Source: Botryllus schlosseri (Eukaryota). From it: DNA of 64,000 nucleotides. The notes under the pieces were generated by a model that saw nothing but the letters and a program-made list of their open reading frames with translations, was not told the DNA's origin and made no database searches. Location: assembly GCA_051294905.1 (NCBI GenBank), contig CM119371.1, forward strand, positions 37,140,001 through 37,204,000, read 5' to 3'. Positions within the stretch are counted from its first letter, which is position 1; every line of letters begins with the position of its first letter. Both the position numbers and the translations under genes were made by a program. Of this stretch, positions 18,933 through 53,081 are shown in pieces.

Positions 18933-19643
18933 CTGTTATAACATCATAATATAACAATTTCTGTTTTACCATGCTATGTCCTGTCCTGCTTGGTCATCTT
19001 CGTCCCTGATTTTTGTCAGCAACTCCCCTCGAATCAATGAGTTTCAGACGGATTAATATGCAAATTGAAAATGTAATTTCGAAACGTGTATTTTGTAAAG
19101 AATACTCGATGTAGATATAGGATTGTAGAAATGGACGTATTTAGAGAAAAAACGAAATATTCGAATTCATGCGGCATATCATTCTAATTAATCCAATGAA
19201 AACCCAAAGTCTTTAGATATTGAATTGTAGTCCTGATTTTTTAGTGCCATTGCGAAAAATATCATTCCTTCAAAATGCAGCACTTCGTTTACATATTCTC
19301 GTAAATTTCGTTTTTTGTCTTTAAAACTATGAAACAAAGCGTTCCCAAACATCTCAGGATTCGGATAAACGACTAAACTGTCTTTTGAGCTGTATAGGGA
19401 CAATTCCCCGCTCATGTGCTTGAAAAATTTAACGGTTCTGGTTCTAAGGCAAAATTTCGATTTAATGAATTCCAATAAATATTCCAGATGCGTTTCCGTA
19501 GTTTCGCTCTCGGCATATTTCAGAGTCGAATTGAATTTTTTCAGGGATTTTAGTTGTCCTTTCACGAACAGAGATTGTCGATACCATTCTGCTTTCGCAT
19601 AGTGGATCAGTCATAAAATCTGAACTTGATTCATATTGAAATC

Positions 19644-21761
19644 TTACTTGCAATTTGTAACGATGATGAAACTTTTTACAATCGAGTCCAATTCTTCAAT
19701 GGTTTTCGCTCGAAACATTTTGGAAATCCAACACATGGCATGTGTTTTGAGGCGCTTTTTATAATGTTTGACGATCATGACTTTTGCAGCTTTCATGGCA
19801 TGTGCCAAGCAATTCTGAATAAATGGCAGTTAAAGGTCATTCGCATTCGGCATTCCAGATACTACGCGATAGCAGCGGACGTAATATTGCAGTCTTGTTT
19901 CGTTGCAAAACGATCTTAAAATTGCATTCCACATTGCAGGCGATCCATCGATAATAATCCTTAGCGGAGCTGATTGAGCTCCGGTCAGGCGAAATCGTTC
20001 AGATAGAAAAAAATTCAGGAACTGTGAGATAGATATAGAGTCGTGACTTTTTGTAATGTAGGAAGCGATAGGAAGAGAAACTTCTCCTTTGATAGGATTC
20101 CGCACCAACAACGTATAAATTTGGAAGTCTTCGCCTCTTTTCAGGCTCCCACTGGCGTCGCAATAAATCATGTCTATCTTACATAAGGTATTAAACGCTT
20201 TGATCCCGAAAATTGTAAATATAATGATTTGCGGGGGAGATGTTTGAATGGATCTAATAAATCTTGTGGAATCCGCCTCTTCATCCTTCATTTTCTCTAA
20301 GTTGACGTACCATTCGCGTTTGACATCAATTAAAGTCTGTTCGCACTAGAGTTTTCGAAGTACGTTGGAGCTTGGCACGTCTGTATGGGAGCCGAGGATC
20401 CTCTGCTCAGCGGTCAGAGTATCGTACAACTCGTTGTGGAGCGATGCCGGCTTTCGGTGCTCCAGTTTACTTCTGATCATTTTCCGCTCGCTTCCGCGAA
20501 CTGGACGTGATCGTACGCATTCTCCTGTGTGACAACGAGTTCCGTCGATAATAATTCTCCCTTCAACATCTGGACAATTTTGACGCTGCATAAAGGTTAC
20601 ACGATACGTAACGTAACATGTTTTGTGCGAGCAATACAGATTTGCATTACCGACTTCATAACAGTCACTCCCTCTTTCGTTGACGACATGTCGCAAATAA
20701 TGATTGAGAAAGGCCGGAACGCATTCGTCGTACAAAGATTTTATAGGGTCCAGAATAACATTCCTGTACTCGTCCTTATCGAATCTGTTATTATCAACAC
20801 CGACGATGTATTTCCATTTACTTCCCTCAATATTAAAGTGACCTTCGATTTCAATTGTTTTAGATGTAATAAGGTCGAATTTGCTGCTGGTCATTAATGA
20901 GCCAAGTCCGATTTCCCCTTCGTTATCCGACAGTTCATCAGAGAATGATTTGTGGATCTGCGCAATGCCATCATTACACGATGGAATCTCTTGTACATCA
21001 TGAATGCTATCGGTTTGAGTCCCTTTTGTCAATAGCTCCACCGATGAGGTACAGGTACCGGCATCTTGAAGAATCTTTGATTGCATATTTCCATCAACAC
21101 GGTGGAATATTCCTGATCCTGATTTGGTATGTACGGCTACAGTGGCGTGTTGGCACAGTAATGGTACTTTTTCCCACTTTCCCTTTACAAATTTACGCAG
21201 ATCAGTGCCTTTGAAAATACAGATATCATGAAACCACGACTCACACGTGTCACATTGAACTAGCTCCTCCCCGCGCCACTCTTTGCGACACACACAGTAC
21301 CTCTGACCAGCAAAATTTGTCAACTCATCAACTTGTTTGGAGTTGTGTTTTTCAACAATACAGCGGACATCGACGTCATCACTGGTTGCCACATCATCTG
21401 TTTCGAAACGAGACATTCCTTTGAGAGCATTCTTTATCTCCACGTCTTGAAGTTTACAGAAACTACGCAGAAGTGTTTTCCGCTGCGTCGTGCTTTTCCC
21501 TTTACAATAACTGCAGCTATCCAGAAAATCATTTTGGAGTTTATCAGTTCTTAGTGATTCTACTCCATTACGATGCAGAAAATTAGCTATAGTCCTCACT
21601 AGATATTTCTTTTTGGTACTTAGCTGCTTGATACTTGACTGCTTGGTAGTTGACTGCTTGGTACTTGGCTGATGGGTACTTGACTGATGGGTACTTGAAT
21701 GCTTGGTACGGGTAGAAGCCCGACCCATGACCCTTGATAGAACAACGCTTGCAACATACAA
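19644..21761 (-). pseudogene. PHD-finger + NOF/MULE-type DDE transposase, one frame with two in-frame stops
   Basis: ORFs 21761-20346 and 20291-19830 and the continuation to 19644 share one frame, broken only by TAG (20346-48) and TAA (19830-32). Motifs: PHD YCVC...CDTCESWFHDIC...CQH (21147-21302); C-x4-C...H zinc-binding region; IYCDASGS (D1); RIIIDGSPAMWNAILRSF (D2); CLAH (MULE CxxH). Catalytic E not found. Confidence 0.82.
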
Positions 21762-22182
21762 TTCTTAACACTGCACCGTATTGGTTTTGCCAAGTGACAA
21801 CATTTCTTCTTCATATAGTTCACAAGTTCAAATGACATGACGAGCTGGTTCATCAACTAACGTAATTGTGGCGCGGGGGCCCTTAATAATCTTCGTGTCT
21901 ACGCCGCAAAATACCAATTATTGATCGTGAACTCAATTGACAGCCATTATAGTCGTTAGCTACCGAGGTCGACTCAAGAATTCCAGCCTTAGTGTTGGAT
22001 GTTCATCAAGACAAGTCGGCAGCTACGGATTAAAATGAACAAATGGCCTTGTGTAAATGACCATAGTAGTTGACAAACACCATGAACACCCTAAGTAAAC
22101 AAAGACAAACCATATTGAAGATCAACCTATTACCAACGCCGAAAAGGCCTAATATCTCGAAGCTTTGCGTTTCATTTCGAGC

Positions 22183-24232
22183 GTCCTAATTGTCGATTGA
22201 AACCGACCGAAAATCGGATTAGACGAAAAGTGGTATTTGACGCAAAATCGTGCATTTTGATCTTAAAAAAGTACGCAATTTCTCAACTTTTTGATAATAT
22301 CGTTAATATTATGATGTAATACTTATCCGAATATATAACATATCCGAAGCAGAGGGCACGCCGTTACATTTTAGGTGTCCTGATTGTCCATTGAAACTGA
22401 CCGAAAATCGAATTGGACGAAAATTCGTATTTGACGCAAAATCATGCATTTTGATCCTCAAAAAGTACGCAATTTTTCAACTTTTTGATATTATCGTTAA
22501 TATCATGATCTAATACTTAACGAAATATATAACATATCCGAAGCAGAGGGCACGCCGTTACATTTAGGGTGTCCAAATCGTTGATTGAAATAGACCGAAA
22601 ATCGAATTGGACAAAAAGTCGTATTTGACGCAAAATCATGCATTTTGATCTTAAAAAAGTACGCAATTTCTCAACTTTTTGATAATATCGTTAATATTAT
22701 GATGTAATACTTATCCCAATATATAACATATCCGAGGCAGAGGGCACGCCGTTACATTTTAGGTGTCCTGATTGTCCATTGAAACTGACGGAAAATCGAA
22801 CAGGACGAAAAGTCGTATTTTACACAAAATCATGCGTTTTGATTCTCAAAAAGTACGCAATTTCTCAACTTTTTGATATTATTGGTAATATCATGATGTA
22901 ATACCTGTTCAGATATATAGCATATCCGAAGTAGAGGGCACGCCGTTACATTTCGGGTGTTCTAATTGTCGATTGAATCTGACCGAAAATCGAATTGGAC
23001 GAAAATTCGTATTTGACGCAAAACCATGCATTTTGATCCTCAAAAAGTACACAATTTCTCAACTTTTTGATATTATCGTTAATATCATGATGTAATACTT
23101 ATCGAAATATATACCATATCTGAAGCAGAGGGCACGCCGTTACATTTTGGGTGTCCTAATTGTCGATTGAATCTGACCGAAAATCGAATTGGACGAAAAT
23201 TCGTATTTGACGCAAAACCATGCATTTTGATCCTCAAAAAGTACACAATTTCTCAACTTTTTGATATTATCGTTAATATCATGATGTAATACTTATCGAA
23301 ATATATACCATATCTGAAGCAGAGGGCACGCCGTTACATTTTGGGTGTCCTAATTGTCGATTGAATCTGACCAAAAATCGAATTTGACGAAAAGTCGTAT
23401 TTGACGCAAAATCGTGCATTTTGATCTTAAAAAAGTACGCAATTTCTCAACTTTTTGATATTATCGTTAATATCATGATGTAATACCTGTCCAGATATAT
23501 AGCATATCCGAAGTAGAGGGCACGCCGTTACATTTCGGGTGTTCTAATTGTCGATTGAATCTGACCGAAAATCGAATTGGACGAAAATTCGTATTTGACG
23601 CAAAATTATGCATTTTGATCTTGAAAAAGTACACAATTTCTCAACTTTTTGATATTATCGTTAATATCATGATGTAATACCTGTCCAGATATATAGCATA
23701 TCCGAAGTAGAGGGCACGCCGTTACATTTCGGGTGTTCTAATTGTCGATTGAATCTGACCGAAAATCGAATTGGACGAAAATTCGTATTTGACGCAAAAT
23801 CATGCAATTTGATCTTAAAAAAGTACACAATTTCTCAACTTTTTGATATTATCGTTAATATCATGATCTAATACTTAACGAAATATATAACATATCCGAA
23901 GCAGAGGGCACGCCGTTACATTTAGGGTGTCCAAATCGTTGATTGAAATAGACCGAAAATCGAATTGGACAAAAAGTCGTATTTGACGCAAAATCATGCA
24001 TTTTGATCTTAAAAAAGTACGCAATTTCTCAACTTTTTGATAATGTCATTAACATGATGATTTAATACTTATCCCAATATGTAACATATCCGAAGCAGAG
24101 GGCACGACATTACAATTCGAGTGTCCTAATTGTCAATTGAAACTTACCAAAAATGGATTTGACCGAAAATCGAATTTGACGAAAAGTCGTATTTGATGCA
24201 AAATCGTGCGTTTTGATCTTCAAAAAGTAGGC
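22183..24232 (-). repeat. Right-arm tandem array, 10 x 194 bp plus a partial unit, inverted relative to the left arm
   Basis: Anchor agagggcac at 22351, 22545, 22739, 22933, 23127, 23321, 23515, 23709, 23903, 24097. Confidence 0.97.
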
Positions 24233-25594
24233 GACGTAAAACCATACGATGAAATAATTTTGCGAATATATAAAATGCCCGAAGCAGAAGCAACGCTATT
24301 GCATTTTTTTTTGTTTTTATTGTTTATTGAATAACTTATAAATTGCGGCATTACAGTCGACCTATACCAAACACGAACATGACGTTGATCGCAATAATCG
24401 TAATCATTTATATTCTGATGTGCTCAAGACACATAGTGTGCAATGCGATGTAGTTAACCGGCAAGAAGATGTTGCATTTACATATTATGGTATTTTAATC
24501 AAACAACGACTAAAGCCAATTGGCCGATGTAACAGTGTGGGATATGCTGTCTTCGTTAAACGTTATTATTTGTGTTTTTTTTTCTGCTCGATATCACATA
24601 TAATCTTTTGTGGAGTCTTACTTCGGGCGTCTTGACGTAAGAACTAGTCAAACATGGGGGAAGGAACACAAATTAACCTCTGATGCTTCGGCTACAGGCG
24701 AGAATAGAAGTAGGTCCGTCTGCGTAGATTACGTAACGGCTGAAAATTTAGATGCCATAAGTACTACCTGGCGGTTGTAAAATGAAGCACTCCTTCCAAG
24801 TTTCGATGACATATTGTATTGATCATACCGTTTGCGCCATTTAGTGATAAAACTCGTGTGTTTCAGTTCGTTTGCACTCCAAAACTGTCGCGAAATTGTT
24901 TTTCCGGTTATAATATTTGATTTCAGCACAAGTGAATCATTGCGACAACAATTACTCGGCGATTTCGGAAATGTAACGTAAGCATTTTCTGGCAGAATCA
25001 CAGTGGTACAATGACAACAATATAATGAATATTAATTGTCAAGTCAGTGCTCAGTTCAGTACGAATCACGAGTAGTGTTGCTGTGATTATGTTCAGAATA
25101 AGTCAGTCTTTACGTTCAATGTAGGATCAGTATGTTGACAATAAGGTCATTCCACGGTTGAGGGTTCATGGCATTTAGGAAGGGCTGGGGACGAGGGTCC
25201 TATCCAGGGTCGGGCTCGCTCACCACTATACACGCTATCTCTCCCACTACTAATGATAGTAACTTCTGTTCAAAATTTTTCCAAATTTCACTGGATACGT
25301 TATAAAATAGTTATGTTGGCTAAAAAAATGTTGCACACCAAATTTGGCGGAATTCCAACCAGTAGATGCAGAGTTCTTGGATTGCATCAAAAAGTTTTGA
25401 ATTTAATATTTAAAAAATAGTAATTGAAATTTCATGCCCAACCTGTAAAATTGTTAGGCTGTCAGTAGAGACGATGCAAGCCAAATTGGGCTCAATTTCA
25501 ACCAGTAGAAGCGATGTTGTTGCAGTAGAAAAATTTGAAATTGAATAAAATACTTCATGAATGATGTGGAAGGTTCGAGTATCAACCTTTTATG

Positions 25595-30531: not shown

Positions 30532-31957
30532 GTGATACTTAGAGAGTAGTGGAAGATTAGAGGACATGCATTCCGGTGTCAAAAATCATGAGTGTGATGT
30601 ATGTGGGAAAATATTTACTCAAAAGTGTAACCTGACGCGTCATATGGAGATGCATGTTGGCATGAAAAACCATGAATGTGATGTGTGTGGAAAAGCTTTC
30701 ACCCAGAAGGGAGACCTGATGTTTCATGTGGACATACATGCTGGCGTCAAAAATCATGAATGTGCTGTGTGTGGAAAAGCATTTACTCGGAAGGGTAACC
30801 TCAAACTCCATATGGAGATGCATGCTGGCGTCAAAAACCATGAATGTGCTGTGTGTGGAAAAGCATTTACTCGGAAGGGTAACCTCAAACTCCATATGGA
30901 GATGCATGCTGGCGGCAAAAACCATGAATGTGCTGTGTGTGGAAAAGCATTTACTAGGAAGGGTGACCTGAAGCTTCATATAAAGATGCATGTTGGCGTC
31001 AAAAATCATGAATGTTGTGTTTGTGGAAAAGCATTTACTCAGAATGGTCACCTGAAGCTTCATGTGGAGATGCATGCTGGCGTAAAAAATCATGAATGTG
31101 GTGTTTGTGGGAAAGCATTTACTCAGAATGGTCATCTGAAGCTTCATATGAAGATGCATGCTGGCGTCAAAAATCATGAATGTGCTGTGTGTGCGAAAGC
31201 ATTTATTCGGAAGCGTGACCTGAAGCTTCATATAAAGATGCATGCTGGCGTCAAAAATCATGAATGTGGTGTTTGTGGAAAAGCATTTACTCAGAATGGT
31301 CACCTGAAGCTTCATATGGAGATGCATGGTGGCGTCAAAAATCATGAATGTGGTGTTTGTGGGAAAGCATTTACTCAGAATGGTCATCTGAAGCTTCATA
31401 TGAAGATGCATGCTGGCGTCAAAAATCATGAATGTGCTGTGTGTGCGAAAGCATTTACTCAGAAGGGTGAGCTGAAGCGTCATATGAAGATACATGCTGG
31501 CGTCAAAAATCATTAATGTACTGTGCGTGGAAAATCATTTCCTCACCAGAGTAACCTCAATCTTCATATGAAGATGCATGCTGGCGTCAAAAATCATGAA
31601 TGTGCTGTATGTGGAAAAGCATTTACTCAGAAGGAAGACCTCAAGCTTCATATGAAGATCCATGCTGGCGTCAAAAATCATGAATGTGCTGTGTGTGAAA
31701 AAGCATTTACTCAGAAGGGTAACCTTGAGCGTCATGTAGAGATGCATGCTGGTGTCAAAAATCACGAATGTGCTGTGTGTGGGAAAGCGTTTACTCAGAA
31801 GGGTCACCTGAAGCTTCATATGCGGATGCATGATGGCATCAAAAATCATCATGTGATGTGTGTGAGAAAGCATTTACTGAGAAGACAACCCGGACATATG
31901 CGGATGTATGCTTGCATGAAAAATCATCTTGTCTGCAATATTGGCAACAAAGCTTGA
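30532..31957 (+). pseudogene. C2H2 zinc-finger array exon, copy B (14 intact fingers plus 1 broken; probably disabled)
   Basis: Acceptor tttAG at 30530-31; 1-nt deletion versus copy C just after the acceptor; 11 fingers in ORF 30566-31516; TAA at 31514-16 where other units have GAA, followed by a finger lacking its second Cys; 3 further fingers; frameshifted tail. An 11-finger product from ATG 30566 is not excluded. Confidence 0.8.
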
Positions 31958-33174
31958 ACATGCCCCAGGTCTAGTGGCATTACAGTCCAAATATACCCTA
32001 TACGTAATGCTGTCCGGTCGCTGGCATGCAATGTAACAATCGCTAGGTACAACTATGTACTCATCCGTTAATCATGTGTTTCGCATCTATCCGTATGTTA
32101 TTTATCCATAGTCGAACGCTTCCCTAGACACTCGGCCGCGTCTGGCGTCTGAACGGGCTCAGCTTCTGCTGCACTCGTGTGCATAGTCGTATTGAACTTA
32201 CTGTACGCCAAATACCCATGTTCAAAGTCCATGGTGAACTTCCGATTAATCTGTTTTTTTTTCATATCAGCTTACTATGTGCACCGAAATCGCGAGAGGT
32301 CTTGTTATGAACAGTTACTGGGAGTCCAAATAATCGCTTGAATTCGCTAATGAATCATTGATATTAGTAGTTTCACATATTACTATCAAATATTTAAACT
32401 ATTCTTCGAAGTTACAATGAAATGTCTGTCCTGACTGCCCTAGTGTGGAGTCATATGACTTTGTCTGAGTCGTGCACTAAAATATTGTGACTCGAATCGA
32501 GTCATCACAACCCTGGCAGGTTGGTCAGCCCTGAGCGAGAGTATCGATTTCCAGTGCTTTACAACAAGTGTTTCACATGACATGCTGCTGTGTTTCAAAT
32601 TGCCATAAATATTGTGTTGCTATTGTTGCAGATTGGTTGTAGTCGTCGAAAATTCAAAAGTCTGTATACATGATAACGTGACGATGACTGGTAATTGGCT
32701 ATGCTGCCGCATCTGCCCTTTACTGCGGTGTTGTTTCACATACGGCACGGCAAGCATATATGAAAGTTGGGATTGCGTCATACTCGACGGCCCACTGTTC
32801 TGAAAATCCATGGTGAGTTGATGAACACTGAGTTGTGTTATACTATTACTCAAAAGTATTCTAGTTGGACATTTTCTGATTCATAATTAGCGGTTTTTAT
32901 AATTTTCATCAGTTCTAACCAGGCAATCCAATGTACAATGCGAAATGTAATGTACTGATGTAATAAACACAAATAGCTGGATTTCTAAACGCAACGATCA
33001 AGTCAGTATAGTTCAATTTAATAATAATTTCATCCTTTCAAAACCACAAGATTATGTTAAAGGTAAGGTAGGAAGGAAGGGAAGTCGAAACGACCGAGTA
33101 GTTTTCAACGAAACAACCACCTTCGAATAGAACATTTATATAAGAGGAATGCACGCTGAATTTATGGCATAGAC

Positions 33175-35845
33175 CAGTGGTTCCCAACCTTTTTATCCTA
33201 ATTCCCCATTTCCGATGTATTCCGTGCCTTCAATCCCCACCTAAAATCTCTATATCCATACCCCCCCTTTAAAGTGCTACCTCCAATAAAATTTTGCAAG
33301 ACTTTGCTTAGTAAATCGTTAAGATCCCCTGAATTGATCAGTACACAATCAAATTAACGCAGCGGTGAACTGGTAGCCGTAAACGCAGCACCGTAACTGC
33401 CGCACCCCAAACCCCCCAATTGGGGGGGGGCCGAGCTCAAAGGGGGCCCAAAATTATTTTGTGAATTAGCATAAATCATAGAGTATTTTTTGAAAATTTA
33501 TGCAATATTTTCAAAATTTGTTCGCTCCGCGCGCGAATTCGAGTTGTCATTTATCTTTATTATTGGGTATTGGGCCCTTATCGCGCCACGACCCACCAAG
33601 ACATAGAATCAAGTTTTAGGCCATATAACATGTGACTCCAAGAAATGTGCCAGAACGATCGGCAGCGAGAAAACCTTGGCCGAAAAGGTCTATGCTCTTA
33701 TGCTGACCGAAGACTTCGTTATATATACAAAATACATAAAGGTTTAATTGTCCATAGGTGCCTAAATGACTGGCGCCGTATGTTCCTGTCTTTGCAATCT
33801 GAACCTCACAAGACAAATGCCACCCCGCTGGTAAAAATTTTATGAGAGTGAAGAAATACCAATTTGAAATCGTGTGCGTCTCTTAGTTTAGAAGCCTACG
33901 TTTGGGCGATTCTACATTTTTTGATATAGCAGACTGGAAGTCACGAAATAACATTATGTAAGAAGTCATATCGACGGGTCTGCCCGCCCGAAGATGTTTA
34001 ATTATTATTTACGAGCCCTCCCGTTTTCCAAGACACTTCACTCAGCTCTACCAGTGAATCTAATTACGTGAGTAGAGAGGACAATATATTGATAGCATAA
34101 TATATATGCAATCGCCGATCTGATTGACCGATTTTATCATAAATTATTGAAAATTTTCGCGCCTCGCGCTGGCTCACAATACAGTACAGATGATTTCGTG
34201 ACAAACGCGAACAACGTGATGGAGGGGTCGTTTCATCACCCTATGGGAGCACAAGACCCACGTTTTTTGGGCCTGATGAGGTGCTGCTTCGTTCCAGCCA
34301 ACGGGTATACGCTTGAAGATGTTTAATTATTATTGAGTGGTCCTACCTTTTCCAACACACCTCACTCAGCTCTATCGGCAAATCTGATTACGTGAGCGGA
34401 GAGTATAGATAAAAATTGATAACAATATATATGCAATTCCCGATCATACTAACCGATTCAGTCAAGAATTCCGCGCGCTTAGGCGACAAAAGCTGATTCA
34501 GTAAACAGGCTATCGTCGGAGGGGGGTCTGGGGTGAAAGCCCCCCAGAAGTTCGGTCTATAACCCTATGGGGGGCCCAAGACCAAAGTTTGGGGGGGGGG
34601 GCTGACGAAGTGCTGTTAAGACCCTGGTAAACCGACCTCCATAAATGTATGTATCTACCCCGGCGCGCAGCCAACAGAAAAATAGGAGGGGTTTGAAAAT
34701 TTTCCAGATGTTGCGGAGTATCATCAATTTAAATACGTAAATGCCGAATAATACATGGGTCAGGTAAACTTCCTGATGTTGACGAACTCATGCGTGCGAT
34801 ATATATATATAAGCTGCGTAAACTACACTTTCTCACAGCACTAAAAGAACTGGAAATAACATAAATATGTACCGTAATTTTCCGAATATAGTGCGCCCCC
34901 ATGTATAATACGCACCCTTACAATGGCGTGCAAATTCCGGGAAAAAGCCTGTACCCATGCATAGTACGCACCCTGCATTCGCATTACATGAATAGTTGTG
35001 TTTCAGTACACGATGTTGTTCTGTTTTGCGAAGTCACTGTCGAACAATCATGACATAACCATGCGATTGTTAAGGCCTGTCGTTGACGCGATGAATCGGC
35101 AAGGATTGCCGCGGACGCTTGTAGCAACCAAGCGACCTGATTTCGCTCGCGTACAAACGGCTAACTAACTCAGCAGGCGCTGTGCAGACGACTCTCGTTC
35201 ATTAGAAACACGCTTTTCGTTAATTGGTAACACCCTTCTCTATTTGGCTGCGTTGTTACACTCTATAATACGGATTACGAGGGCCCAATGGCTAGAGGTG
35301 ATGCGCGATTTAAACAAACATGAAGAAAGGTGTGATTTCAAGTTTTTGATCGAGGGATTTTTTTCAAGGCTTGCTGTACCCATGTATAATACGCACCCCC
35401 TATTTTAGGGCAAAAAATCGGTAAACTTTTGCGCATTATACATGGAAAATTACGGTAATTTCATTTGTAACGGGGCCGGATGTGCTATCAATTATCGAAT
35501 CTACGATATCCTTTGAATATATATTCAGCAATATGAGCTCTTATTACAACGAATCAGAATTTTTCTATCACTAGGTTTCGTGACCGATGATGGTGTACAA
35601 ATGAATAAAAACATTTCTGGATATCGCGTGTCGCTATGCAGGCGATTCTCGCTAATTATGGAGGCACTGATAATATAAATCGCAGAATTGCTAATGAGCT
35701 ATGAAATATTGGGTCGGCATTTCAACACGACGTTTAATAAAGGAGAATATTACTGTAAAGAATTTTTCAAAAGGGAGTCTATTTCCCACCAGAAATCCTG
35801 AAATTCTCCACCAGTGGGGAATTCCCCACCGTTTGGGAACCACTG
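33175..35845. mobile_element. hAT (Charlie-like) element with nested insertions
   Basis: TIR cagtggttcccaa / ttgggaaccactg; TSD GCATAGAC at 33167-33174 and 35846-35853; contains a further element at ~33386-34626 and a TA-flanked element. Confidence 0.9.
34872..35455. mobile_element. Tc1/mariner-pogo (Tigger-like) MITE
   Basis: TA-ccgtaattttcc ... ggaaaattacgg-TA; same family as 39621-40505 (inverted) and a fragment at ~60520-60781. Confidence 0.85.
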
Positions 35846-35894
35846 GCATAGACAGGACAACCTCTAGATTTCATTTTCAAAAATTTTTATATAA

Positions 35895-37332
35895 CACTCG
35901 TCAACACATATTTTTAGGCAGACAAAGTAAGAGTGGTTTTGGCGGTTCTCAGGGGCACTGATTCCGAATATGACCCAAGTTTTTCCAAATTGGCTCTTGT
36001 TGTGGAAATAACCCATGGGGCTATTTTGACCAAAATCCTCCATTTTTGCGGTACTGACTAGATATAAAATCGGCTCAATCGTACTATAAAGTTTAGAAAA
36101 TCAATATTCTAGTTATTTTTACACGCAGAAGACCCTTTTAAATCAAAATACCGCAACAGCACTATATTTAGGGGTAATAGATTGATCATAGTTACAGATT
36201 TTCACGGATATCATGTACTTAAATAAACTCCAGTCATGTACATAAGTATTTACCTAGATGCTCAAATAACGTGGCAATAATTCAATCAGTTTTAAGTCAA
36301 CCACTTATTGTAAATTTGAAATAATCAGTTGGAATATAATATTATTGATATATTTTAATTCAGAATTGTTTTTTTTGTAAGATTTTTGCCTGTAAGCTAT
36401 TTAGTGCAGTTTCTTGAAAGGTTCCGGCAATGGTCTGACATAATATGTTCAATTGTTCATCTCATCTGCCCTGATTTCTTTCTTTCGTTGTTCTGATGTC
36501 TTTGTAGAACCTCTCCCCTTGCTTATCAACAAGATGATCAGGAAGTATATCCAGATTTCTGAACAGGAAGTGAACTTTTATGCTCATGTTTGTGCTCAAG
36601 TGTTCGATATGCAGATACGAATTTTCGGACCAACTGTTTGTGGTTGGGTGCTTTATGATCATCAGAAAAGTTTTAGTTACTAAATCTTGGCAGAAATTTC
36701 AGGCAGTGAACTCCTTCCTAATGTGAAATTGGAATCTTTCATCGGTATTCGAATATGCCAGATACCAGACTTGAGCTTCTCGTTTGATAGGGTTACTACT
36801 TACTAGGTATACCCATTCACGTTGTTGACTCAGCGAAAAATTATCCATTTACCAGTCAAAAAAAAGGAGACGCATATGAGTATTGTAGTTAGCCTTCCAT
36901 GGACAAATTTTATAGTTTGATACTCCTCTTTAATCTTGGTAGAATAACCAATTGATACAGGAGAATATGAATTTCTGTTGTGCAAAAGTACAATTTTCAT
37001 GCTTGACAAATTGCATTTTTGACAAACAAATCTTTCGCATCATGTCATGTTAATATTGATAGAATGACTGAGAATGACATGAGGGTTCTTCATAGTCAAT
37101 TAGTTATTTATGCGCAGTATAAAATTTGAAAAAGCTACGATTTTCTTCCTATCAAGTGAAATATTTGAGGGTAAATACAATATTTTGGGCTTTTTTAGGG
37201 GTATATATATCTTCTGACAAAGAGCCAATCTGACAAAACTAATGTGATATTCCTAATCAGCAACCTCAAAAACCCCAGAAACGGCTCTCAGATGTTCTGC
37301 CTAAAAAAAAATTTTAATTTTGTTGACCAGTG
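35895..37332 (-). mobile_element. Chapaev3-like (CMC superfamily) deletion derivative with transposase remnant
   Basis: Ends cactcgtcaac / gttgaccagtg flanked by taa/tta; minus-strand NMSIKVHFLFRNLDILPDHLVDKQGERFYKDIRTTKERNQGR resembles the recalled MSxKxHFL...EQGERFHQD motif. Confidence 0.75.
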
Positions 37333-37669
37333 TTATAAATCCAATTTTTTCTATCGTAGGAATGTCGCTTCTACCGGTTGGAATCAAGCCAAATTTGGTG
37401 TGCAGTGTTTTGTTAGCCAACCTAACAATTTTGTCATGTAGCCAGTGAAATTTGAAGAAAAATGATTCTTGTTGTTGAACTCCCTGACGCACAAATTAGT
37501 ATTTCAGCATTCATAGACTTTGAAATAGATATAGTATATGAAACATACTACTTGATCAAGTGAAACTAGTAAATAAATCCACCCGAGTACTACGGAAAAG
37601 CAGAATTACTAACTAATGACCTCTTCTAGTGGGACAATAGATGTGTCAAGCGTGATAAGGGGTGATAAG

Positions 37670-38559
37670 TAGGGCAATTTTTTTTTTGACATGTTAAAAA
37701 AAGTCAAAATTAGGTCAAAATTGTAGCGTTAAGTCAAAATTAGGTCAAAATTGTTTAAAAAGTTGAAACTTTTTTGCAACCTGCATTTCGTTTGTATAGT
37801 AGATTTTGCACTGTCGGTGAACTTATTATTTGACATTTTACAGCTTGTAGCCTACTTTATAGGCCTACTGTTGTAGACGGCCCATGGTCTGCTCATTGTG
37901 AATCATAAACATTCAAATGAAACAAATAGGCTGATGTGGTGTTTGGTCAATGTGCCTCAATATCCTAACTGAAGCAAGACTGCGTGGGCATTGCATGGTT
38001 CTTATATCAAGAAACGCATGATGAAAAATTGTGATGTAGATAGCATTTTCAAAATGAAGCAACATGGTGTGTCACCAGCAGTGTACGCACAACTTCAGTG
38101 CTGTCAGCCAAAAAGGCAACAACTGCTGCTGTTGATCGTTCTTTCTCCATTTTTGGCAAGCTACTTAGTAAGGACAGACACTTTCTACCCGAGAATGTAG
38201 GAAAGTTTTTTTCGTTGTACTACAACAAATTTTAATTATTTCTACCATAATTCGTGATGTAACTACTGGAATTCTTCATTGGGCCAGATTTCGTCGAAAT
38301 ACTAGTTTTTTCATCTAAAAATATGTCAGTTTTCAAGCCAAAAAAGTGTTTTAGGCCTAAATACTTCATAAGGACAGACAGTTCCAACCAGAAATGAAGA
38401 TAAGTAGTACAATTTTCACAATAGGTGCGAAAACACCTAATTTGCATACGTGAGGTCAAAATTTGGTCAAAATTCAGTTTTTTTAGGGCAAAAAATGTCA
38501 AAATTTTGTTTTGTTAGGTCAAAATCTTCCGTTTTTTAGGTCAAAAAAAAATTGCCCTA
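37670..38559 (+). mobile_element. hAT deletion derivative with C-terminal transposase remnant
   Basis: TIR tagggcaattttttttt / aaaaaaaaattgcccta; TSD GTGATAAG at 37662-37669 and 38560-38567; remnant SPAVYAQLQCCQP~AAVDRSFSIFGKLLSKDRHFLPENVGKFFSLYYN. Confidence 0.88.
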
Positions 38560-39620
38560 GTGATAAGTGTTAGGTTTCAACTCGAGTCGAGTATTCGATT
38601 ATCACTCATTATGGCCTTTTATGCCACCACAATGACTATAATGCCAATTCTAGATCACATTCAAGATTTGGTATTTTTCAACCATACCGATGTGATTGCA
38701 CTTTGTGACGAAGCTGTGAGTGATCACGAATTCACAGATATGTCATTTCCACTAATGTGTGCAGCATAGTTGCTTAAGAATAACTTTTTTCGGATCCTGG
38801 GCAATCACAGATTAAATTGTTAGGTTGCCTAAAAAGACGCTGCTCACCAAATCTGGCTCAATTCCAACCAGTATACGTCGGCGCACGGCCAATTGAAATT
38901 TTTGACTCTATTATGAAAAATATAAATTCAAATTTTACTGTCGACTTCATGGAACTGTTTAGCTGTCTACAAAAACAAAACAAATTCTACGTAATCCCAG
39001 CTCATAGAAGCGAAATTATATTAGTTTTTCATTCATAAATCTGGGAGTATCCACCATCTATGCTATTTTCCAAATCCGAAATTTTCAGCTGCAATAACTT
39101 TGCTTCTACGGGTTGGACTAGCGTCAAATTTGTTTTGCATCGTTTCTGGAGACAGCTAATCAATTTCCTGCGGTTGATAAAATTTACTTGTTATAGTAAA
39201 TTCGAAAATTCAAATTGACTCTGCGTCAGCGTATACTGGTTGAAATTGAGCCAAATTTGGTATGAAGCGTATTTTAAGCAGTCTAATAACAGGATCAGTA
39301 AATCCTCGACATCCGAAAAAAAAGTTTTTTTTTAACAACCCTAGTGTACGGCGGTTTCATATACTACAATACGACTAATCCAGGTTTAAAGGCCTCCACG
39401 GAGGAAAATCGTATCGGAACTATAGAACGAGTCTGTATTTGTTTTTTCCAGCGAAAATACCAAATAAACAGGCGATATGATCAGTCGAGATTCACAGCCG
39501 TATGCAGTGTGAAAATTGCATTGCATGTAATTGGATATCTCAAATTTTAGCGACAAGATCATATAATTTCAGTGCTCGAAAATATCATATCTCACTATTC
39601 GACTCTAATCGTTAGAATTA

Positions 39621-40505
39621 CCGTAATTTTCCATGTATAATGCGCAAAATTTTACCGATTTTTTGCCCTAAAATAGGGGGGTGCTTATTATACATGGGTA
39701 CAGCAAGCCTTGAAAAAAAAATCCCTCGATCAAAATCTTGAAATCACGCCTCTCTTCATGTTTGTTTAGATCGCGGATCACCTCTAGCCATTGAGCCCCG
39801 TAATTCGTATTATCGAGTGTAACGCGCTGCCAAATAGAGAGTCATGTTGCCAATTAACGAAAAGCGTGTTTCTAATTAACGAGTGTCGTCTGCAAAGCAC
39901 GCGATCTCTTGCTGAGTTGATTTGCCGTTTGTACACGAGTGAAATTAGGTCGCTGAATGCTACTGGCGTGCGCGGCAATCCTTGTTGATTCATCGCGTCC
40001 TTGTTGATGCATCGCGTCAACGACAGGCCGTAACAATCTCATACACAAAAGGCCATGTACGCAAGATATAATCGCTTGGGTAATCAGTCGCATCTCCAAC
40101 TGGACTGGTGCGCCCGACATAACCGTTGGCCTAAGCAATCGCATCTGTAATTGTAATAGGCCACGTGCGCAAGATGTCGTGTGTCGCTAGCCTGGGCTAT
40201 CGCGTCGCCAACCTCAAAGGCTTTGGCTACTATCTACTCTCGTTTAGAGACAATGCCGTTAATTGTAATATGATTACTAATCACTGATACTAATCGTTGT
40301 TTGGCGATCATTATGTCATGATTGTTCGACAGTGACATCGCAAAACAGAACAACATCGAATACTAAACCGCAACTATTCATGTACTCATGTACTGCAAAT
40401 GCAGGGTACGTACTATACATGGGCACAGGCTTTTTCCCAGAATATACACGTCATTTTAAGGGTGCGTTTTATGCATGGGGGCGCACTATATTCGGAAAAT
40501 TACGG
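39621..40505. mobile_element. Tc1/mariner-pogo (Tigger-like) MITE upstream of ZF copy C
   Basis: TA-ccgtaattttcc ... ggaaaattacgg-TA; absent from the paralogous site upstream of copy B (~30378). Confidence 0.88.
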
Positions 40506-40765
40506 TAATACTCGATCCAGATTCGAGTACGGTTCTCGAGTCATTGTTCCCGGCCATAGTGATATAGTTGATTAGAGTTAACAGTCTTTGTTACAAACTC
40601 TGTTGGTAATTTGTGCCCAACATTTTGAGCCTAAAGGACTTCACGTAGGATGTTATCTCAATTGCTATATATACACAGTTCATTTAGTAGTGATCATATC
40701 AACAAGTGAGAGACACACAGACTCTAATATTCTAACGATTCATCATACCTTGAAATGACGTTTAG

Positions 40766-42180
40766 GTGATATTTACGAGAGTAGTGGAGGATTAGAGGAT
40801 ATGCATACTGTTGTCAAAAATCATGAATGTGTTGTGTGTGGGAAAGCATTTACTCAGAAATGGAACCTGAAGCTTCATATAGAGATGCATGCTGGCGTCA
40901 AGAACCATGAATGTAATGTTTGTGGAAAAGCTTTTACTCAGAAAGGAGGCCTGAAGCTTCATATGGAGATGCATGCTGGCGTCAAAAATCATGAATGTGC
41001 TGTGTGTGGAAAATCATTTACGCAGAAGGGTGACCTCAAGAATCATATGAAGATGCATGGTGGAGTCAAAGATCATGAATGTGCTGTGTGTGGGAAAGCA
41101 TTTACTCGGAAGGGAGACCAGAAGCTTCATATGGAGATGCATGCTGGCGTCAAAAATCATGAATGTGCTTTATGTGGAAAATCATTTACTCAGATGGGTA
41201 ACCTCAAATTTCATTTGGACATGCATGCTGGCGTCAAGAACCATGAATGTGATGTGTGTGGCAAAGCTTTTACTCTGAAGCAAGTCCTCAAGTGTCATAT
41301 GGACATGCATGCTGGCGTCAAAGTTCATGCATGTGCTGTCTGTGGAAAATCATTTACCCAGAAGGGTCACCTCAAGCGTCATATGGAGCTTCATGCTGGC
41401 ATCAAAAATCATGAATGTGATGTCTGTGGAAAAGCATTTACTCACAAGGTTAGCCTCAAGCTTCATATGGAGATACATGCTGGCATCAAAAATCATGAAT
41501 GCGCTGTATGTGGAAAAGCATTTATTCTGAAGGGTAGCCTCAAGCGTCATAAGGAGATGCATGTTGGCGTAAAATATCATGAATGTGCAGTGTGTGGAAA
41601 ATCATTTACTCTACAGAGTAGCCTTAAGCGTCATATGAAGTTGCATGCTGGCGTCAAAAATCATGGATGTGCTGTGTGTGGGAAGGCATTTACTGAGAAG
41701 GGTCACCTGAAGCTTCATATGAAGATGCATGTTGGCGTCAAGAATCATGGATGTAGTGTGTGTGGCAAAGCTTTTACTCAGAAGGGAGGCCTCAAGCTTC
41801 ATATGGACATGCATTCTGGCATCAAAAATCATGAATGTACTGTATGTGGAAAAGCTTTTATTCTGAAGGGTAGCCTCGAGCGTCATAAGGAGATGCATGT
41901 TGGCGTAAAATATCATGAATGTGCAGTGTGTGGAAAATCATTTACTCTACAGAGTAGCCTTAAGCGTCATATGAAGTTGCATGTTGGCGTCAAAAACCAT
42001 GAATGTAGTGTGTGTGGCAAAGCTTTTACTCGGAAGGGAGGCCTCAAGCTTCATATGGACATGCATTCTGGCATCAAAAATCATGAATGTGCTGTGTGTG
42101 GGAAAGCATTTACCCATAAAGGTAACCTCAAGCCTCATATCAAGATGCATGTTGGCATCAAAAATCATGAATGTGACTGA
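40766..42180 (+). CDS. C2H2 zinc-finger array exon, copy C (16 intact tandem fingers)
   Basis: Acceptor tttAG at 40764-65; frame open from the acceptor (GT GAT ATT TAC GAG...: DIYESSGGLEDMH); ORF 40801-42180 contains 16 CxxC-x12-HxxxH units; a ~20-nt deletion in finger 17 creates the stop. Confidence 0.9.
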
Positions 42181-42210
42181 GAAGACAACCCTTACCGGAC
42201 ATATGTGCAT

Positions 42211-42578
42211 CAGGGATCAAACTTCAATCTTATTGTGTAAAGTGCTTTTGATTGTTTTGCAAAGAATCACCTCATGCGTTTGAATAGCAAACCGATGCTT
42301 GAGGAGGCACGGAAGAAAAATTTTCGCAAGATCCGTAAACTGACCTCGAAGGCTTCTGCTCAATGCTAGGCCAGTGTTCGATTTCCCATTTTGACGTCAC
42401 CATCACAACTGTGACATCCTGGTCATTATTTTTATGTTGTTTCCTAATAAACATGAACAAAACACATGTCCTGGATGTTTTCTCAGTACTCTTTCTAGGT
42501 ACATGGTTGCATCGACATCGGCCTGCTATCGGTCGCTCCTTAAAACCGTGTCCCATCCCGAAGTTCTAGATATCCCTG
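42211..42578. mobile_element. Short DNA element (hAT-like) inserted in the decayed last finger of copy C
   Basis: Ends cagggat / atccctg; TSD ATGTGCAT at 42203-42210 and 42579-42586; absent from copies A and B. Confidence 0.8.
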
Positions 42579-45169
42579 ATGTGCATGCATGCTTGCATGA
42601 AAAATCGTAAATGTGGTATATGAGGGAAGGCATTTACTCAGAAGAGTCACTTCGAACTCCGTATGATTATCCTTGCTGACATCAAAAATCTTGTCTGCAA
42701 TATTGACAATAAAGCTCGAACATGCCACAGACAAGATGGCCGTGGCCTAGTGGCGTTACAGTCCAAATATAACTCATACGTAATGCCGTCCAGTCGCTGG
42801 CATGCATTATCTGTTTACGAAAGCGACCAGCAATCGCTGGCTGCAACTGCGCACTCATCCGTTAATCACGTGTTGCGCATCTATCTGTAGGTTTGTTATC
42901 TGAAGTCGAACGCTTCGAAGACACTCACCCGCGTCTGGCGTCTGAGCGGGTTCAACTTCTGTTGCACTCACGGGCATAGTCGTATTGAACTTACTGGACG
43001 CCAAATACCCATGTTCAAAGTCCATTTCTGGTGAACTCCCGACTAATCTATTTTCGACATACCGGTATCAGCTTACTATGTGCACCGAAATCACGAGGAG
43101 TTTTGTTATGAACAGGTACTGGGAGTCAACATGATCGCTTGAACTCACTAATGAATTTCGTCATTAATATCAGTAGTTTCATATAATACATCGAATTTTA
43201 AATGTTGAAGGGGGTGTTTTCAAAAATATAGGGCAAGTTATGAATGGTGATACATCTTCGGACTTTTTGCATGCTGTATTTTCTTGATCTCCCATTTTTC
43301 TCTGCTGTTTGCATCTGTCCTGTGGAAACAGGCGCGTAGACGGGGGTGCGGGGGAATCGGTGACCAATATCCGCCGCTCCCAAGCTCAGATATCCCTCCT
43401 CTTGAATCCAAAATCTAGCTACTATATTAAAATCGAAAATTTAACGAAGTCGTAATTAATCGCGCATAGCCCGAACGAAATCTCTTTTTCAATTAAAATC
43501 TCTCAAAAATTCGGGAGCAAATTCACAAATTCAATTTGCATGCTGACGGCCGCCAACACATACTAAGTGAATTATGTGTTGACGGCCGCTGGAAATTCTG
43601 TCTACGGCCGCAGATTGCAGGCTTGTAACAAAGTCACAAGGTTCCGAATCGCATGATAATAGACGAGATACCAATATTGTGTTAACTTTACTATTCTTCG
43701 AAGTTACAATGAAATATCTGTCCTTGCCGTCCTAGTGACGAGTCAGTCACTAAAATATTTGGACTCAAGTCGAGTCATTACAACCCTGGCAGGCTTCTCA
43801 GCCCTGATCGAGAGTATTGATTTACAGTGCTTTACAACAAGAGTTTCACATGACATGCTGTTGTGTTTCAAATTGCCATATATATTGTGTTGCCGTTGTT
43901 GCAGATTAGTTATAGTCGTCGAGAATTCAAAAGTTCTGCATACAGAATAACGTGACAATGACTGGCTATGCTGCTGCATCAGCCCTTTATAGCGGTAGTG
44001 TTTCACATAGGGCAAGCATATACGAAAGTTGGGATTGCTGCAGACTCGACGCCCCACTGTTCTGAAAATCCATGGTGAGTTGATGAATGCCGAGTTGCGC
44101 TATACCAGTGCTTTTCAACCTTTTTGAGCTTCATTCGCACTTTTTTTGTAAAATAAATTTCATTTGCACAAACTAACCGAATATTATTATACAAAAGAAG
44201 AGGAAAATACAACATTTATTTTTACAGATGTGCAACAAATTGGTTCCAATCTATCTTAAGCTATCAAGTATGTCATTAAATAGGCTACTATTTTCGCTTG
44301 TTTTGATTTCAACTATTTCACTAAAACCCTTTTACTATAGTGTTTGGATGACCAGGTCTTGAAGTCTGTTCTGCACTCCTATCCAACATACAGCGTATTT
44401 TTCAAGAGTGAAAAATGCTTGCTGGACAAAATCGATTTTCAGATCTGAAAAAGAAGTCTAGGAGGCTCCTGTATGTCGGAAGTGTGAATAACTCGACTGT
44501 TTGTGTTGAGGCTAAAGCCTTATGTCTTGGAATATAAGGTCAAAATGATCAAGGAGAGTAGGCACATTTGAGCTCACTACCTTATGACACGCTGCTACAA
44601 CTTGTTTATCGCTTTCCCATTTTATGTCACGCGAGAATGTGGTAATAGCAAATAAACTCACGATACTGGGTGTTCTGCACTTTAGCTCAATCTAGCTTGA
44701 GATTTCATTACTGTTTAATAACGTTATAGCAGTTATTTAGGGTGGAGGCCAAAAAGCTGAGTAAAAACATCCTGGATTTTCGCTTAATCTGCGAGTTCCA
44801 AGATCTCCCGATTTAGAAGTAGACTATCCGCACGCCAAAATATTGGATGTTCGTGCGAAGTTAGTAGATCTACAAATCCAGGATGTAGGACGCTATTGCG
44901 TCAAAATGACGCAAAATGTAGTGATCCGTGGAAGGTTGCCATGTCAATCAATCGACTTCGTAGTAAATATTGCTTCAATGGCAATGCTGATTGGAAATGT
45001 TGTCGATTTTGGTCATGTGCTATGAATGCCGTCGTTTCCTAGGTAGACTTATGGAATTGATTTGAAGCCACTTTGCAGCTTTAATGCATATTACTCAGTA
45101 GTTTATTCACAGTTATAAGTTCTAAAGACGGCATTGCAAACTGGTACTGTTGTTATTACTGTCTGTAGT

Positions 45170-51405: not shown

Positions 51406-52952
51406 ATGTATAATGACTTGAACGTTGTCATCACATGCACAACGCTCTTCTAGGTGAAGATTGAAGAAGCCGTTTTCGCAGTGGAACTGATGCGTTAATT
51501 TATCATCCATAGATTGCTAATATCTTTAATGTTTAGGACACCAAAACCTTGGAGTACCGGTATGTTATTTATTTGGTATTGTAATATTATTGTGCTGAGA
51601 TACTTAAATGTCTAGTTTTCTGCTGTAATATGTGACAAAATCCTCTGTTGATATGGCTAAATAATCTGTCCATGTTATGATAGTAACGAACTACTAGATG
51701 TAACTAGTGCACTTTATTTGTTTCTTATTTTTTTTCTCTGGTTGTGTTCAGCATTTTGTATTTCAAACTTCAAACGTTATGAGTTTCCTCATTCGTGTTT
51801 GAGCGTAGTAAGTAACGCTGCGACGATAGCAGTAAGCTAACATGAGTCCACATTTTGGTAAAATCACATTTCATGCATAATTTGGCTGTTAGCGTAACAA
51901 CCTAAAACAGGGGTTCTTAAACCTTTTTGATCGCAGATCCCGTCAAGTTTTCTGGACGTTTGCGCTTAACCCCCAAATTTCTGAGGCCAAAGAGTGGAAG
52001 GTCATCACCTCAAACTGTATTTTGGCCATTTCACTTCTGAAATAACATAGCGAATGACCAGATGAAGAAGTTACAGTCCGACTCACGACATTATTATCAG
52101 AGGAAAATCTGGTTTTGTAGTTTCTTGATGACATAATGCCCTTTCACGCCCCCCTAAAACTCGCTCGCAGATTCCTAGGGGTTCCGTGGACCCCAGTTTG
52201 AGAGCCTTGACCTAAGATTTCAATATATGTTTTAATACGATTATTTGCCATTCTCACACTTATTTGAATTTAATCTGATCTGATAAAGAACCGAACTTGA
52301 TTTTTGTTCTATTTCTTCTTAATGCGTTATATAATGAAGAGCTAATGTTTGTAGATGTTGTACTTGTGTAATCTGAAGCCAGAAGGTTATCGCAGCATTC
52401 CTTGCGTATTTATTCCCTTCGACGCACCGCAGGGGTTCGTTGGCTGACGTACCACGAAGCCTGTCTAGTGCACACGTATTTCGAAGGTCACGCGGACAAC
52501 TCTTTTTGTTTCTGTCTCCACGACGTGTAAATTTATTGAATCAACGTACGACGACGTAATATCTCTTCGATCATAAATTGAATTGAATGTATGAATACGC
52601 TGTATCACATTCGTATATATATCATAGCCACGAGAGATTACATGCACAAAACATCGTACCACTTATTACAGCTTATCTCTACTTAACGCGGCGTATAGAT
52701 TACCATGTAGCACAAATGTTCTTATCGGGAATTTCACTTCATGGAATTAAGCATTGTTGGCAAGACTCCTCATTGATTAAATCTTAAATAGCGTTAACAT
52801 TATATCCGGTTATACGTAATATAATTCCATCACCAAGTTGTTGAGAATTCAGTGATTCTTATTGTTATCTAATTTTGAAAAATCTGTGTAGCTACCGTAC
52901 ATGATAATAATTATAATATCTTTTGTAAAAGCTGTCCAACTTCCCTTGACAG

Positions 52953-53081
52953 CTTGCAGTACGCGCCATTCATCAACAGATTCAAACTTTCATCCGGGCA
53001 GGCGGGCTGATGCATACGCTGGTGGGAAATCCTGTGAAAATAACGGAAGACCTTCCTCTTTCAGTCATAGAAGATATCAAG
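52953..53081 (+). pseudogene. ACTR10: Orphan duplicated ACTR10 exon
   Basis: 129-nt AG/GT-bounded open exon LAVRAIHQQIQTFIRAGGLMHTLVGNPVKITEDLPLSVIEDIK, paralogous to 2969-3097 and 57550-57674. Confidence 0.8.

What the first reader, a model, noticed from the sequence alone, without database searches (positions are those of the whole stretch)
30566..42180. Minisatellite-like zinc-finger arrays with a non-canonical linker and variation focused on the recognition helix
Seen: 84-bp units are highly homogeneous with linker (A/V)G(V/I)KNHE instead of the canonical TGEKP(Y/F). Differences cluster in the helix (QKCNLTR, RKGNLKL, RKGDLKL, QNGHLKL, LQSSLKR, HKVSLKL, EKGHLKL). Block duplications are visible (B fingers 5-7 vs 8-10; C fingers 9,10,12 vs 13,14,15), and B and C have largely different fingerprints despite alignable flanks. 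Known: this pattern typifies fast-evolving arrays such as PRDM9 and TE-targeting KRAB-ZFP clusters. Inference: a lineage-specific, birth-and-death ZF family, plausibly a TE-recognition system, embedded in a TE-dense locus.
Basis: partly seen in the sequence, partly recalled or inferred. Interest (0 to 1): 0.7.

Follow-up and report, generated by a model that had tools for sequence, protein, structure and literature searches.

The report
Tandem zinc-finger cluster with unusual linker
This is an ordinary kind of fast-turnover animal zinc-finger gene cluster, with one working copy, one decaying copy and dead pieces of a neighbouring gene copied along; its only odd feature is a finger-to-finger linker that has lost the usual site for being switched off during cell division.

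Summary
Two 84-bp C2H2 arrays (B, 15 units; C, 16) and a third cut by the window start share an xG(V/I)KNHE-type linker; the quoted helices and block duplications are exact. The duplicated unit also carries a dead 3' half of ACTR10. The 194-bp unit is the subterminal repeat of a MULE transposon. Contact residues evolve faster than the rest (C: omega about 2 against 0.5), but omega above 1 loses significance with local synonymous rates. The share of diversity at contact sites (0.29-0.34) is ordinary, about half that of human PRDM9 (0.687). No effector domain was found and a crude test for binding to the 194-bp unit was null. Verdict: a lineage-specific birth-and-death zinc-finger cluster, not PRDM9-like; transposon targeting is plausible by analogy only. 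Earlier notes of this scan report similar zinc-finger clusters with dead PLK1 pieces and contact-site bias elsewhere in this genome.

The parts
1..205 (+). Array A: last fingers of a third paralog, cut by the window start; degenerate fingers run on to about 290
2969..6901 (+). Dead 3' half of an ACTR10 (Arp10/Arp11) gene, copy 1, co-duplicated with the arrays. Exon-like pieces about 2969-3097, to 3620, 4797-4896, 5233-5318, to 5637, 6782-6901; in-frame stops at 2999-3001 and 5623-5625
   Evidence: Best PDB hits are ACTR10 for three pieces of this copy (E 0.0066, 3.7e-8, 0.035) and for the paralog of a fourth; splice sites and stops. The first piece gave no PDB hit (its paralog) and the last was not searched; both are assigned by position and recalled similarity
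16051..25007 (-). MULE-type DNA transposon: 2.8-kb inverted arms (93% identical) that hold the 194-bp arrays (16847-18933, 22168-24185), 8-bp target duplication, broken transposase with a PHD finger
30532..30565 (+). Putative splice acceptor (TTTAG|GT) and 34-nt leader of exon B; one base shorter than in C and closed by stops in all three frames before the ATG
   Evidence: not confirmed by RNA
30566..31516 (+). Gene B reading frame: ATG, 11 C2H2 fingers, premature TAA (316 aa)
31517..31957 (+). Decayed tail of B: unit 12 with Cys-to-Arg, three further fingers, then frameshifted remnants
33175..35848 (.). hAT-type insertion (8-bp target duplication; family label from recalled hallmarks) with nested elements; just beyond it (about 35890) B's 3' flank is joined to C's upstream repeats, so the B-to-C spacer lacks the ACTR10 piece
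40766..40800 (+). Putative splice acceptor and 35-nt leader of exon C; open in the finger frame (phase 1), so either 5' UTR or coding
40801..42180 (+). Gene C reading frame: ATG, 16 intact C2H2 fingers, TGA (459 aa); only zinc-finger families among the strong Pfam hits
42181..44105 (+). 3' flank of C: degenerate 17th and 18th fingers, a 20-bp deletion, a small hAT-type insertion (about 42211-42578, 8-bp target duplication), AATAAA at 42708; homologous to the flanks of A and B
52946..63592 (+). Dead 3' half of ACTR10, copy 2, downstream of C (first piece present twice, 52946 and 57543); suggests a further unit beyond the window

Best explanation
A tandem birth-and-death cluster of finger-only C2H2 genes in an invertebrate animal. 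Segmental duplication copied a unit made of one zinc-finger exon, its 3' flank and the dead 3' half of ACTR10 (shown). Inside each exon, unequal crossing-over duplicates and deletes blocks of 84-bp fingers, which spread one variant linker through the family and erased finger-to-finger correspondence between B and C (block duplications shown; mechanism inferred). C encodes a working 16-finger protein (purifying selection shown); B is truncated to 11 fingers and decaying (lesions shown). The protein most likely binds DNA sequence-specifically through helix positions -1, 2, 3, 6 (established knowledge of C2H2 fingers), with relaxed-to-positive selection on those residues changing its targets (suggestive). 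With no effector domain in the exon it would act by occupying sites or recruiting partners through the fingers (inferred). The likeliest targets are repeats or transposons (about 40%, by analogy to other metazoan ZNF expansions only).
For: Pfam zf-C2H2 E 1.7e-86 and only zinc-finger families among the strong hits. A, B and C share flanks at 84-88% identity. ACTR10 pieces follow both A and C. Neutral decay of C over half the B-C flank divergence would give on average 3.3 stops, 8.6 frameshifts and 10.8 of 64 zinc-ligand changes; 0 of 5000 simulations stayed open without frameshift and 0 of 5000 kept all ligands, while C has none of these lesions. Codon model for C: omega 2.09 at contact sites, 0.54 elsewhere, 0.035 at structural sites; contact versus other p < 0.0001; omega = 1 rejected at p = 0.008. 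Neutral-contact simulations with crossing-over and conversion reached the observed ratio in 29 of 1753 retained replicates (of 4200) and the observed LRT in 0 of 47. Low, strand-biased single-cell RNA depth over C and its 3' flank (0.33-1.94 on the sense side, 0 on the other). Wells et al. 2023 (PMC10547256, passages) report contact-site variability and predicted TE binding for ZNFs across metazoans.
Against: With helix codons alone, omega for C falls to 1.6-1.84 and is not significant (p 0.08-0.20); B is never significant. In the seven youngest finger pairs only 2 of 13 replacement changes hit the four contact positions, as expected by chance (13% of sites). The first simulation run was poorly calibrated and in its few retained turnover replicates 5 of 27 reached the observed ratio. 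Leu sits at +6 in 18 of 31 fingers, C4 has Gln for the core Leu and C16 has Pro at +6, so some fingers may not read bases. No splice joint or leader was seen at either acceptor among the 15 of 826 joints and 24 of 4645 loose ends shown, and reads may come from paralogs. The crude motif test on the 194-bp unit was null. An effector exon outside the window is not excluded.
Confidence: 0.62

Rival explanations
1. The arrays are terminal exons of longer genes whose effector domain lies in an unseen upstream exon (KRAB- or FiNZ-like layout), possibly with B and C as alternative last exons of one promoter.
For: Both exons open with a conserved TTTAG|GT acceptor and C's leader is open in phase 1. FiNZ-ZNFs and KRAB-ZFPs have a domain exon upstream of one finger exon (PMC10547256, passage). 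The B-to-C spacer lacks the low-copy region found upstream of B.
Against: B's leader is closed in all three frames, and both copies keep an ATG 34-35 nt after the acceptor. None of 12 non-finger ORFs scanned hit a repressor or SET family (14 of 37 ORFs of 100 aa or more were scanned). About half of Ciona genes are trans-spliced (PMC4691747, passage), which would give an acceptor with no upstream exon if this is a tunicate.
Confidence: 0.2
2. Both arrays are dead or dying minisatellites; helix variation is relaxed constraint plus drift and C is an orphan exon that lost its promoter.
For: B carries several lesions and the co-duplicated ACTR10 pieces are dead. Omega above 1 is not robust. Youngest pairs show no contact bias. 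RNA depth is very low.
Against: C kept 64 of 64 zinc ligands and an open frame across about 14% flank divergence (0 of 5000 neutral runs); structural omega is 0.03-0.05 in both arrays. It may describe B now, and C only if the loss is very recent.
Confidence: 0.1
3. A PRDM9-like system: a minisatellite finger array that marks recombination hotspots.
For: Single-exon 84-bp arrays with recent block duplications; raised omega at contact sites in C.
Against: Contact-site share of diversity 0.26-0.34 against 0.331-1.000 for the complete PRDM9 orthologs in the part of Table 1 that I read; no SET, KRAB or SSXRD hit in the scanned ORFs; multi-copy cluster with a decaying member.
Confidence: 0.03
4. The fingers mainly bind RNA or protein, or DNA without sequence preference, so helix variation does not encode DNA targets.
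For: Loss of the Thr, Glu and Pro of the linker, whose role in locking fingers on DNA is described in PMC4359306 (passage); Leu at +6 in 18 of 31 fingers.
Against: Linker length, Gly and Lys are kept in 31 of 31; rate excess is at -1, 2, 3, 6 and not at -2, +1, +5 (omega 0.28-0.29 in C), the pattern expected of base reading.
Confidence: 0.05

Closest known systems
Lineage-specific tandem C2H2 ZNF expansions of metazoans, e.g. cyprinid FiNZ-ZNFs (Wells et al. 2023, PMC10547256; passages read)
   Same: Clustered paralogs, one finger exon, variable base-contacting residues with some positive selection, repeat-rich surroundings.
   Different: No N-terminal domain found here; linker lacks Thr and Pro throughout; TE repression shown for FiNZ-ZNFs, not here.
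KRAB zinc-finger protein clusters of tetrapods (best PDB sequence match: ZNF568, E 1.7e-68)
   Same: Birth-and-death clusters, 28-residue spacing, pseudogenes beside intact genes, phase-1 acceptor at the finger exon (the last point recalled for KRAB-ZFPs).
   Different: No KRAB hit; no TGEKP linker; the PDB match reflects generic finger repeats, not orthology.
PRDM9 zinc-finger minisatellite (Baker et al. 2017, PMC5519329; passages and part of Table 1 read)
   Same: Single-exon array that turns over by duplication and conversion of 84-bp units.
   Different: Contact-site share of diversity is 0.29-0.34 against 0.687 (human) and 0.910 (mouse); no SET, KRAB or SSXRD found; multi-gene cluster.
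Unprocessed gene fragments carried in segmental duplications
   Same: Intron-containing dead 3' half of a housekeeping gene repeated with each unit.
   Different: The passenger here is ACTR10.

Membership tests
Tandem C2H2 (Kruppel-type) zinc-finger proteins | C-x2-C-x12-H-x3-H repeats at 28-residue spacing with Phe and Leu core | tested here: met
   30 of 31 units keep the four ligands; Phe 31 of 31, Leu 30 of 31; Pfam zf-C2H2 E 1.7e-86
Tandem C2H2 (Kruppel-type) zinc-finger proteins | TGEKP-like linker (typical, not strictly required) | tested here: not met
   0 of 31 with Thr first or Pro fifth; Gly and Lys kept in 31 of 31; background 70% Thr, 80% Pro in 4735 linkers
Tandem C2H2 (Kruppel-type) zinc-finger proteins | Sequence-specific DNA binding | not testable with these tools
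   Needs SELEX or ChIP; only an indirect rate pattern
PRDM9 | KRAB, SSXRD and SET domains upstream of the array | tested here: inconclusive
   No hit in 14 ORFs scanned of 37 listed; short exons and exons outside the window were not covered
PRDM9 | Array in one exon evolving as a minisatellite | tested here: met
PRDM9 | [quoted passage not shown] | tested here: not met
   0.29 and 0.34; equalled or exceeded by 36 and 15 of 118 arrays from other species; within-species ranking impossible, no genome held
PRDM9 | Meiotic expression and hotspot specification | not testable with these tools
   No tissue-resolved data
KRAB-ZFP / FiNZ-ZNF (TE-targeting ZNFs) | N-terminal repressor domain on an upstream exon | tested here: inconclusive
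   None found; 5' end not resolved by RNA
KRAB-ZFP / FiNZ-ZNF (TE-targeting ZNFs) | Clustered birth-and-death paralogs | tested here: met
   Three paralogs in 42 kb, one decaying
KRAB-ZFP / FiNZ-ZNF (TE-targeting ZNFs) | Positive selection on base-contacting residues | tested here: inconclusive
   C: p = 0.008 with whole-unit rates, p 0.08-0.20 with helix-only rates; B not significant
KRAB-ZFP / FiNZ-ZNF (TE-targeting ZNFs) | Binding and repression of transposable elements | tested here: inconclusive
   Crude recalled code against the 194-bp unit: 3 of 38 overlapping sub-arrays at p < 0.05, about chance; low power, one repeat tested

The most novel reading that the evidence does not exclude
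A family of finger-only proteins whose linker has lost the mitotic phospho-acceptor (no Ser or Thr in 29 of 31 linkers; only 2 of 263 comparison proteins have 15% or less) stays bound to transposon or satellite DNA through mitosis, and so acts as an effector-free, self-diversifying repeat reader or mitotic bookmark in an invertebrate chordate.
Probability: 0.08. Interest if true: 0.65.

Novelty: new member of a known kind. Interest (0 to 1): 0.28.

Why it matters
As it stands it adds one more lineage-specific zinc-finger expansion, a pattern already described across animals. It gives a compact natural series (intact C, decaying B, shared flanks as a clock) for measuring how fast arrays turn over. 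If the proteins do bind transposons without a repressor domain, they would address how animals without KRAB use ZNF expansions. The family-wide loss of the linker threonine offers a direct test of whether linker phosphorylation is needed to clear zinc-finger proteins from mitotic chromatin.

Tried and rejected
No genome is held, so family size, allelic finger number and within-species ranking could not be computed. Relatives: three protein searches listed nothing above 48%, 53% and 46% identity (best 120 of 5207, 120 of 1051, 150 of 168,903); proteins over 809 aa were covered only. ESM Atlas returned generic C2H2 clusters at a low recognition value. Run search: no RNA holder listed, which is no evidence either way. 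Read laying was swamped by repeats: 2023 of 2031 bulk reads aligned only in part, 3-6% of the two RNA runs were read, and no joint at the acceptors was among those shown; summed contig depth over the arrays is not a copy number and was not used. Allelic variation could not be read from contigs. First selection simulation retained only 2-13 of 300 replicates in four of five settings and was redone. One ACTR10 piece was first searched in a non-coding frame with no hit (corrected); the first piece gave no hit in frame. An in-frame ACTR10-finger chimera by alternative exon use was rejected: the next ACTR10 piece starts in phase 0 and exon C in phase 1 (boundaries read by eye). The 194-bp unit as a target: null at low power. 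Literature: five searches listed no paper on this family or linker in tunicates; listings only, and the library lacks most subscription journals. No supplements were opened; Baker et al. Supplementary file 3B would give per-species backgrounds. No structure prediction was run, as the fold is not in doubt.
Full report
Observation. The window is repeat-rich animal DNA with three paralogous 84-bp arrays on the + strand: A (1-205, cut off), B (30566-31884) and C (40797-42175). They translate to C2H2 fingers at exact 28-residue spacing, 14 of 15 units in B and 16 of 16 in C (Pfam zf-C2H2 E 1.7e-86). The linker is as described: 18 of 31 match (A/V)G(V/I)KNHE exactly, Gly, Lys and His are invariant, and no linker has the first Thr or the Pro of TGEKP. 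In 390 fetched comparison proteins, 3 of 4735 linkers were of this type. The quoted helices and both block duplications are exact (6, 4, 0 and 4, 3, 1 differences). B and C share 1 fingerprint among 10 and 13.

B has an in-frame TAA at 31514-31516 after finger 11, a Cys-to-Arg change in unit 12, frameshifts in its tail and a one-base deletion in its leader relative to C. From its ATG it gives 316 aa. C gives 459 aa with 16 fingers and essentially nothing else. B-C flanks differ at 13.6% of 1557 aligned sites. Neutral change over half that distance would give C about 3 stops, 9 frameshifts and 11 ligand losses; 0 of 5000 runs stayed intact. So C has been under purifying selection, and B is truncated and decaying. 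The flanks are partly transposon-derived, so the clock is rough.

The duplicated unit. Self-comparison shows that A, B and C share 3' flanks, and that the spacer after A matches the spacer after C over many kilobases. That spacer holds intron-separated pieces whose best PDB matches are ACTR10 residues 239-273, 274-305, 307-328 and 340-378, with stops or frameshifts in both copies. No 5' half was seen. The simplest history is tandem duplication of a segment running from mid-ACTR10 through the finger gene. The B-to-C spacer lacks this part: B's flank joins C's upstream repeats near 35890. The 194-bp unit is not a free satellite but the subterminal repeat in the 2.8-kb inverted arms of a 9-kb element (16051-25007) with an 8-bp target duplication, a PHD finger (E 1.5e-6) and a MULE-like transposase piece (Atlas 0.96).

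5' end and expression. Each exon begins with a conserved acceptor-like TTTAG|GT 34-35 nt before an ATG. No upstream coding exon was found (14 of 37 long ORFs scanned). Earlier AI notes call this genome a sea squirt; I did not test that. If so, trans-splicing, which affects about half of Ciona genes (PMC4691747, passages), would explain an acceptor with no upstream exon. Laid reads show low sense-strand single-cell depth over C and its flank (0.33-1.94 against 0) and over B (about 0.6 against 0-0.16), but paralogs can contribute at 92% likeness and no joint at the acceptors was among those shown. Expression is therefore likely but not shown for these copies.

Is variation focused on the helix? 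Yes, but to an ordinary degree. Positions -1, 2, 3, 6 hold 0.34 (C) and 0.29 (B) of amino-acid diversity against 0.14 if uniform; with the positions as I read them from the legend of Baker et al. (-2, -1, 3, 6) the values are 0.30 and 0.26. Human PRDM9 scores 0.687 and mouse 0.910 (PMC5519329, Table 1 in part). Of 118 arrays among the 120 search hits, 15 equal or exceed C and 36 equal or exceed B (mean 0.27); this background is from other species and biased to similar sequences. Position +9, a boundary residue that shapes finger geometry (PMC7293014, passages), and the residue after the first Cys vary as much as -1.

Selection. A fixed-site codon model gives C omega 2.09 at contact sites, 0.54 elsewhere and 0.035 at structural sites, rejecting omega = 1 at p = 0.008; B gives 1.70, p = 0.14. 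Conversion violates the single-tree assumption, as Baker et al. note, so I simulated neutral contact sites with crossing-over and conversion: 29 of 1753 retained replicates reached the observed pairwise ratio (0-3.9% per setting) and 0 of 47 reached the observed LRT. Against this, synonymous divergence is uneven along the finger (C: 0.60, 0.48, 0.22 for the N-part, helix and C-part), and with helix codons alone omega is 1.6-1.84, p 0.08-0.20. In the seven youngest pairs 2 of 13 replacements hit contact sites, as by chance. What is firm: contact residues change several times faster than neighbouring helix residues. Positive selection in C is suggestive only.

How it works. Established C2H2 biology says the protein wraps the major groove and reads bases with -1, 2, 3, 6. 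Unequal crossing-over reshuffles fingers and, by concerted evolution, fixed one variant linker in the family; such linkers occur singly in unrelated proteins. With no effector in the exon, C would act by occupancy or through partners. Wells et al. 2023 (passages) tie ZNF expansions to retroelements across animals and predict TE binding, so TE targets are a fair guess, about 40%. A crude recalled code found no match to the 194-bp unit beyond chance (3 of 38), at low power.

Novelty. This is a new member of a known kind. It works like other ZNF expansions, is not shown to be a KRAB-ZFP or FiNZ-ZNF, and fails the PRDM9 diversity test. No close relative was listed in three searches, and five literature searches listed no account of the family. 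The one unusual trait is the linker: its first residue is the mitotic phospho-acceptor that releases C2H2 proteins from chromatin (PMC4359306, abstract and passages), and it is Ser or Thr in only 2 of 31 linkers here against 82% in the comparison set. Mitotic retention on repeats is an untested possibility (8%). Interest 0.28.

Noticed in passing
window 16051-25007: MULE-type transposon with 2.8-kb inverted arms built on about 10.5 copies of a 194-bp unit, an 8-bp target duplication and a broken transposase carrying a PHD finger.
   Followed up: partly
window 2969-6901 and 52946-63592: Two intron-containing dead 3' halves of ACTR10, co-duplicated with the finger exons; the first piece is present twice in the second copy.
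   Followed up: yes
window 7149-7391, 15026-16051, 25007-25261 versus 25588-27947: A low-copy segment downstream of the ACTR10 piece is present twice, the first copy split by insertions; single-cell reads show depth 8.9 on one strand only at 25728-26391. It may be a 3' UTR or the missing first exon of the finger gene.
   Followed up: partly
window 45119-46115 (+): Broken Harbinger-type transposase pieces (DDE_Tnp_4, E 3.8e-8) inside an insertion in C's 3' flank.
   Followed up: no
window 26532-27049, 33175-35848, 42211-42578: Several insertions with 8-bp target duplications and short terminal inverted repeats (hAT-like by recalled hallmarks); the first is very high-copy in laid reads and old copies of it lie upstream of both finger exons.
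   Followed up: partly
window 29549-30081, 38769-39339, 50787-51405: Palindromic MITE-like elements of one family; 50787-51405 is 94% self-complementary over 619 bp.
   Followed up: no
window 42147-42617 (run X5, record 15): A contig from another sample covers C's 3' end with 18 gap positions; it may be an allele that differs at the 20-bp deletion or in the insertion. Not resolved.
   Followed up: no
P0217: An unnamed protein with decayed fingers and linkers of similar type (DIKNHE, SGIKNHG); possibly a distant relative of the family.
   Followed up: no
window 8993-9430 and 14075-14517: A 440-bp direct repeat at 97% identity, overlapping a minus-strand ORF (9113-9457) that resembles the tail of a non-LTR retrotransposon by eye; no Pfam hit.
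   Followed up: no
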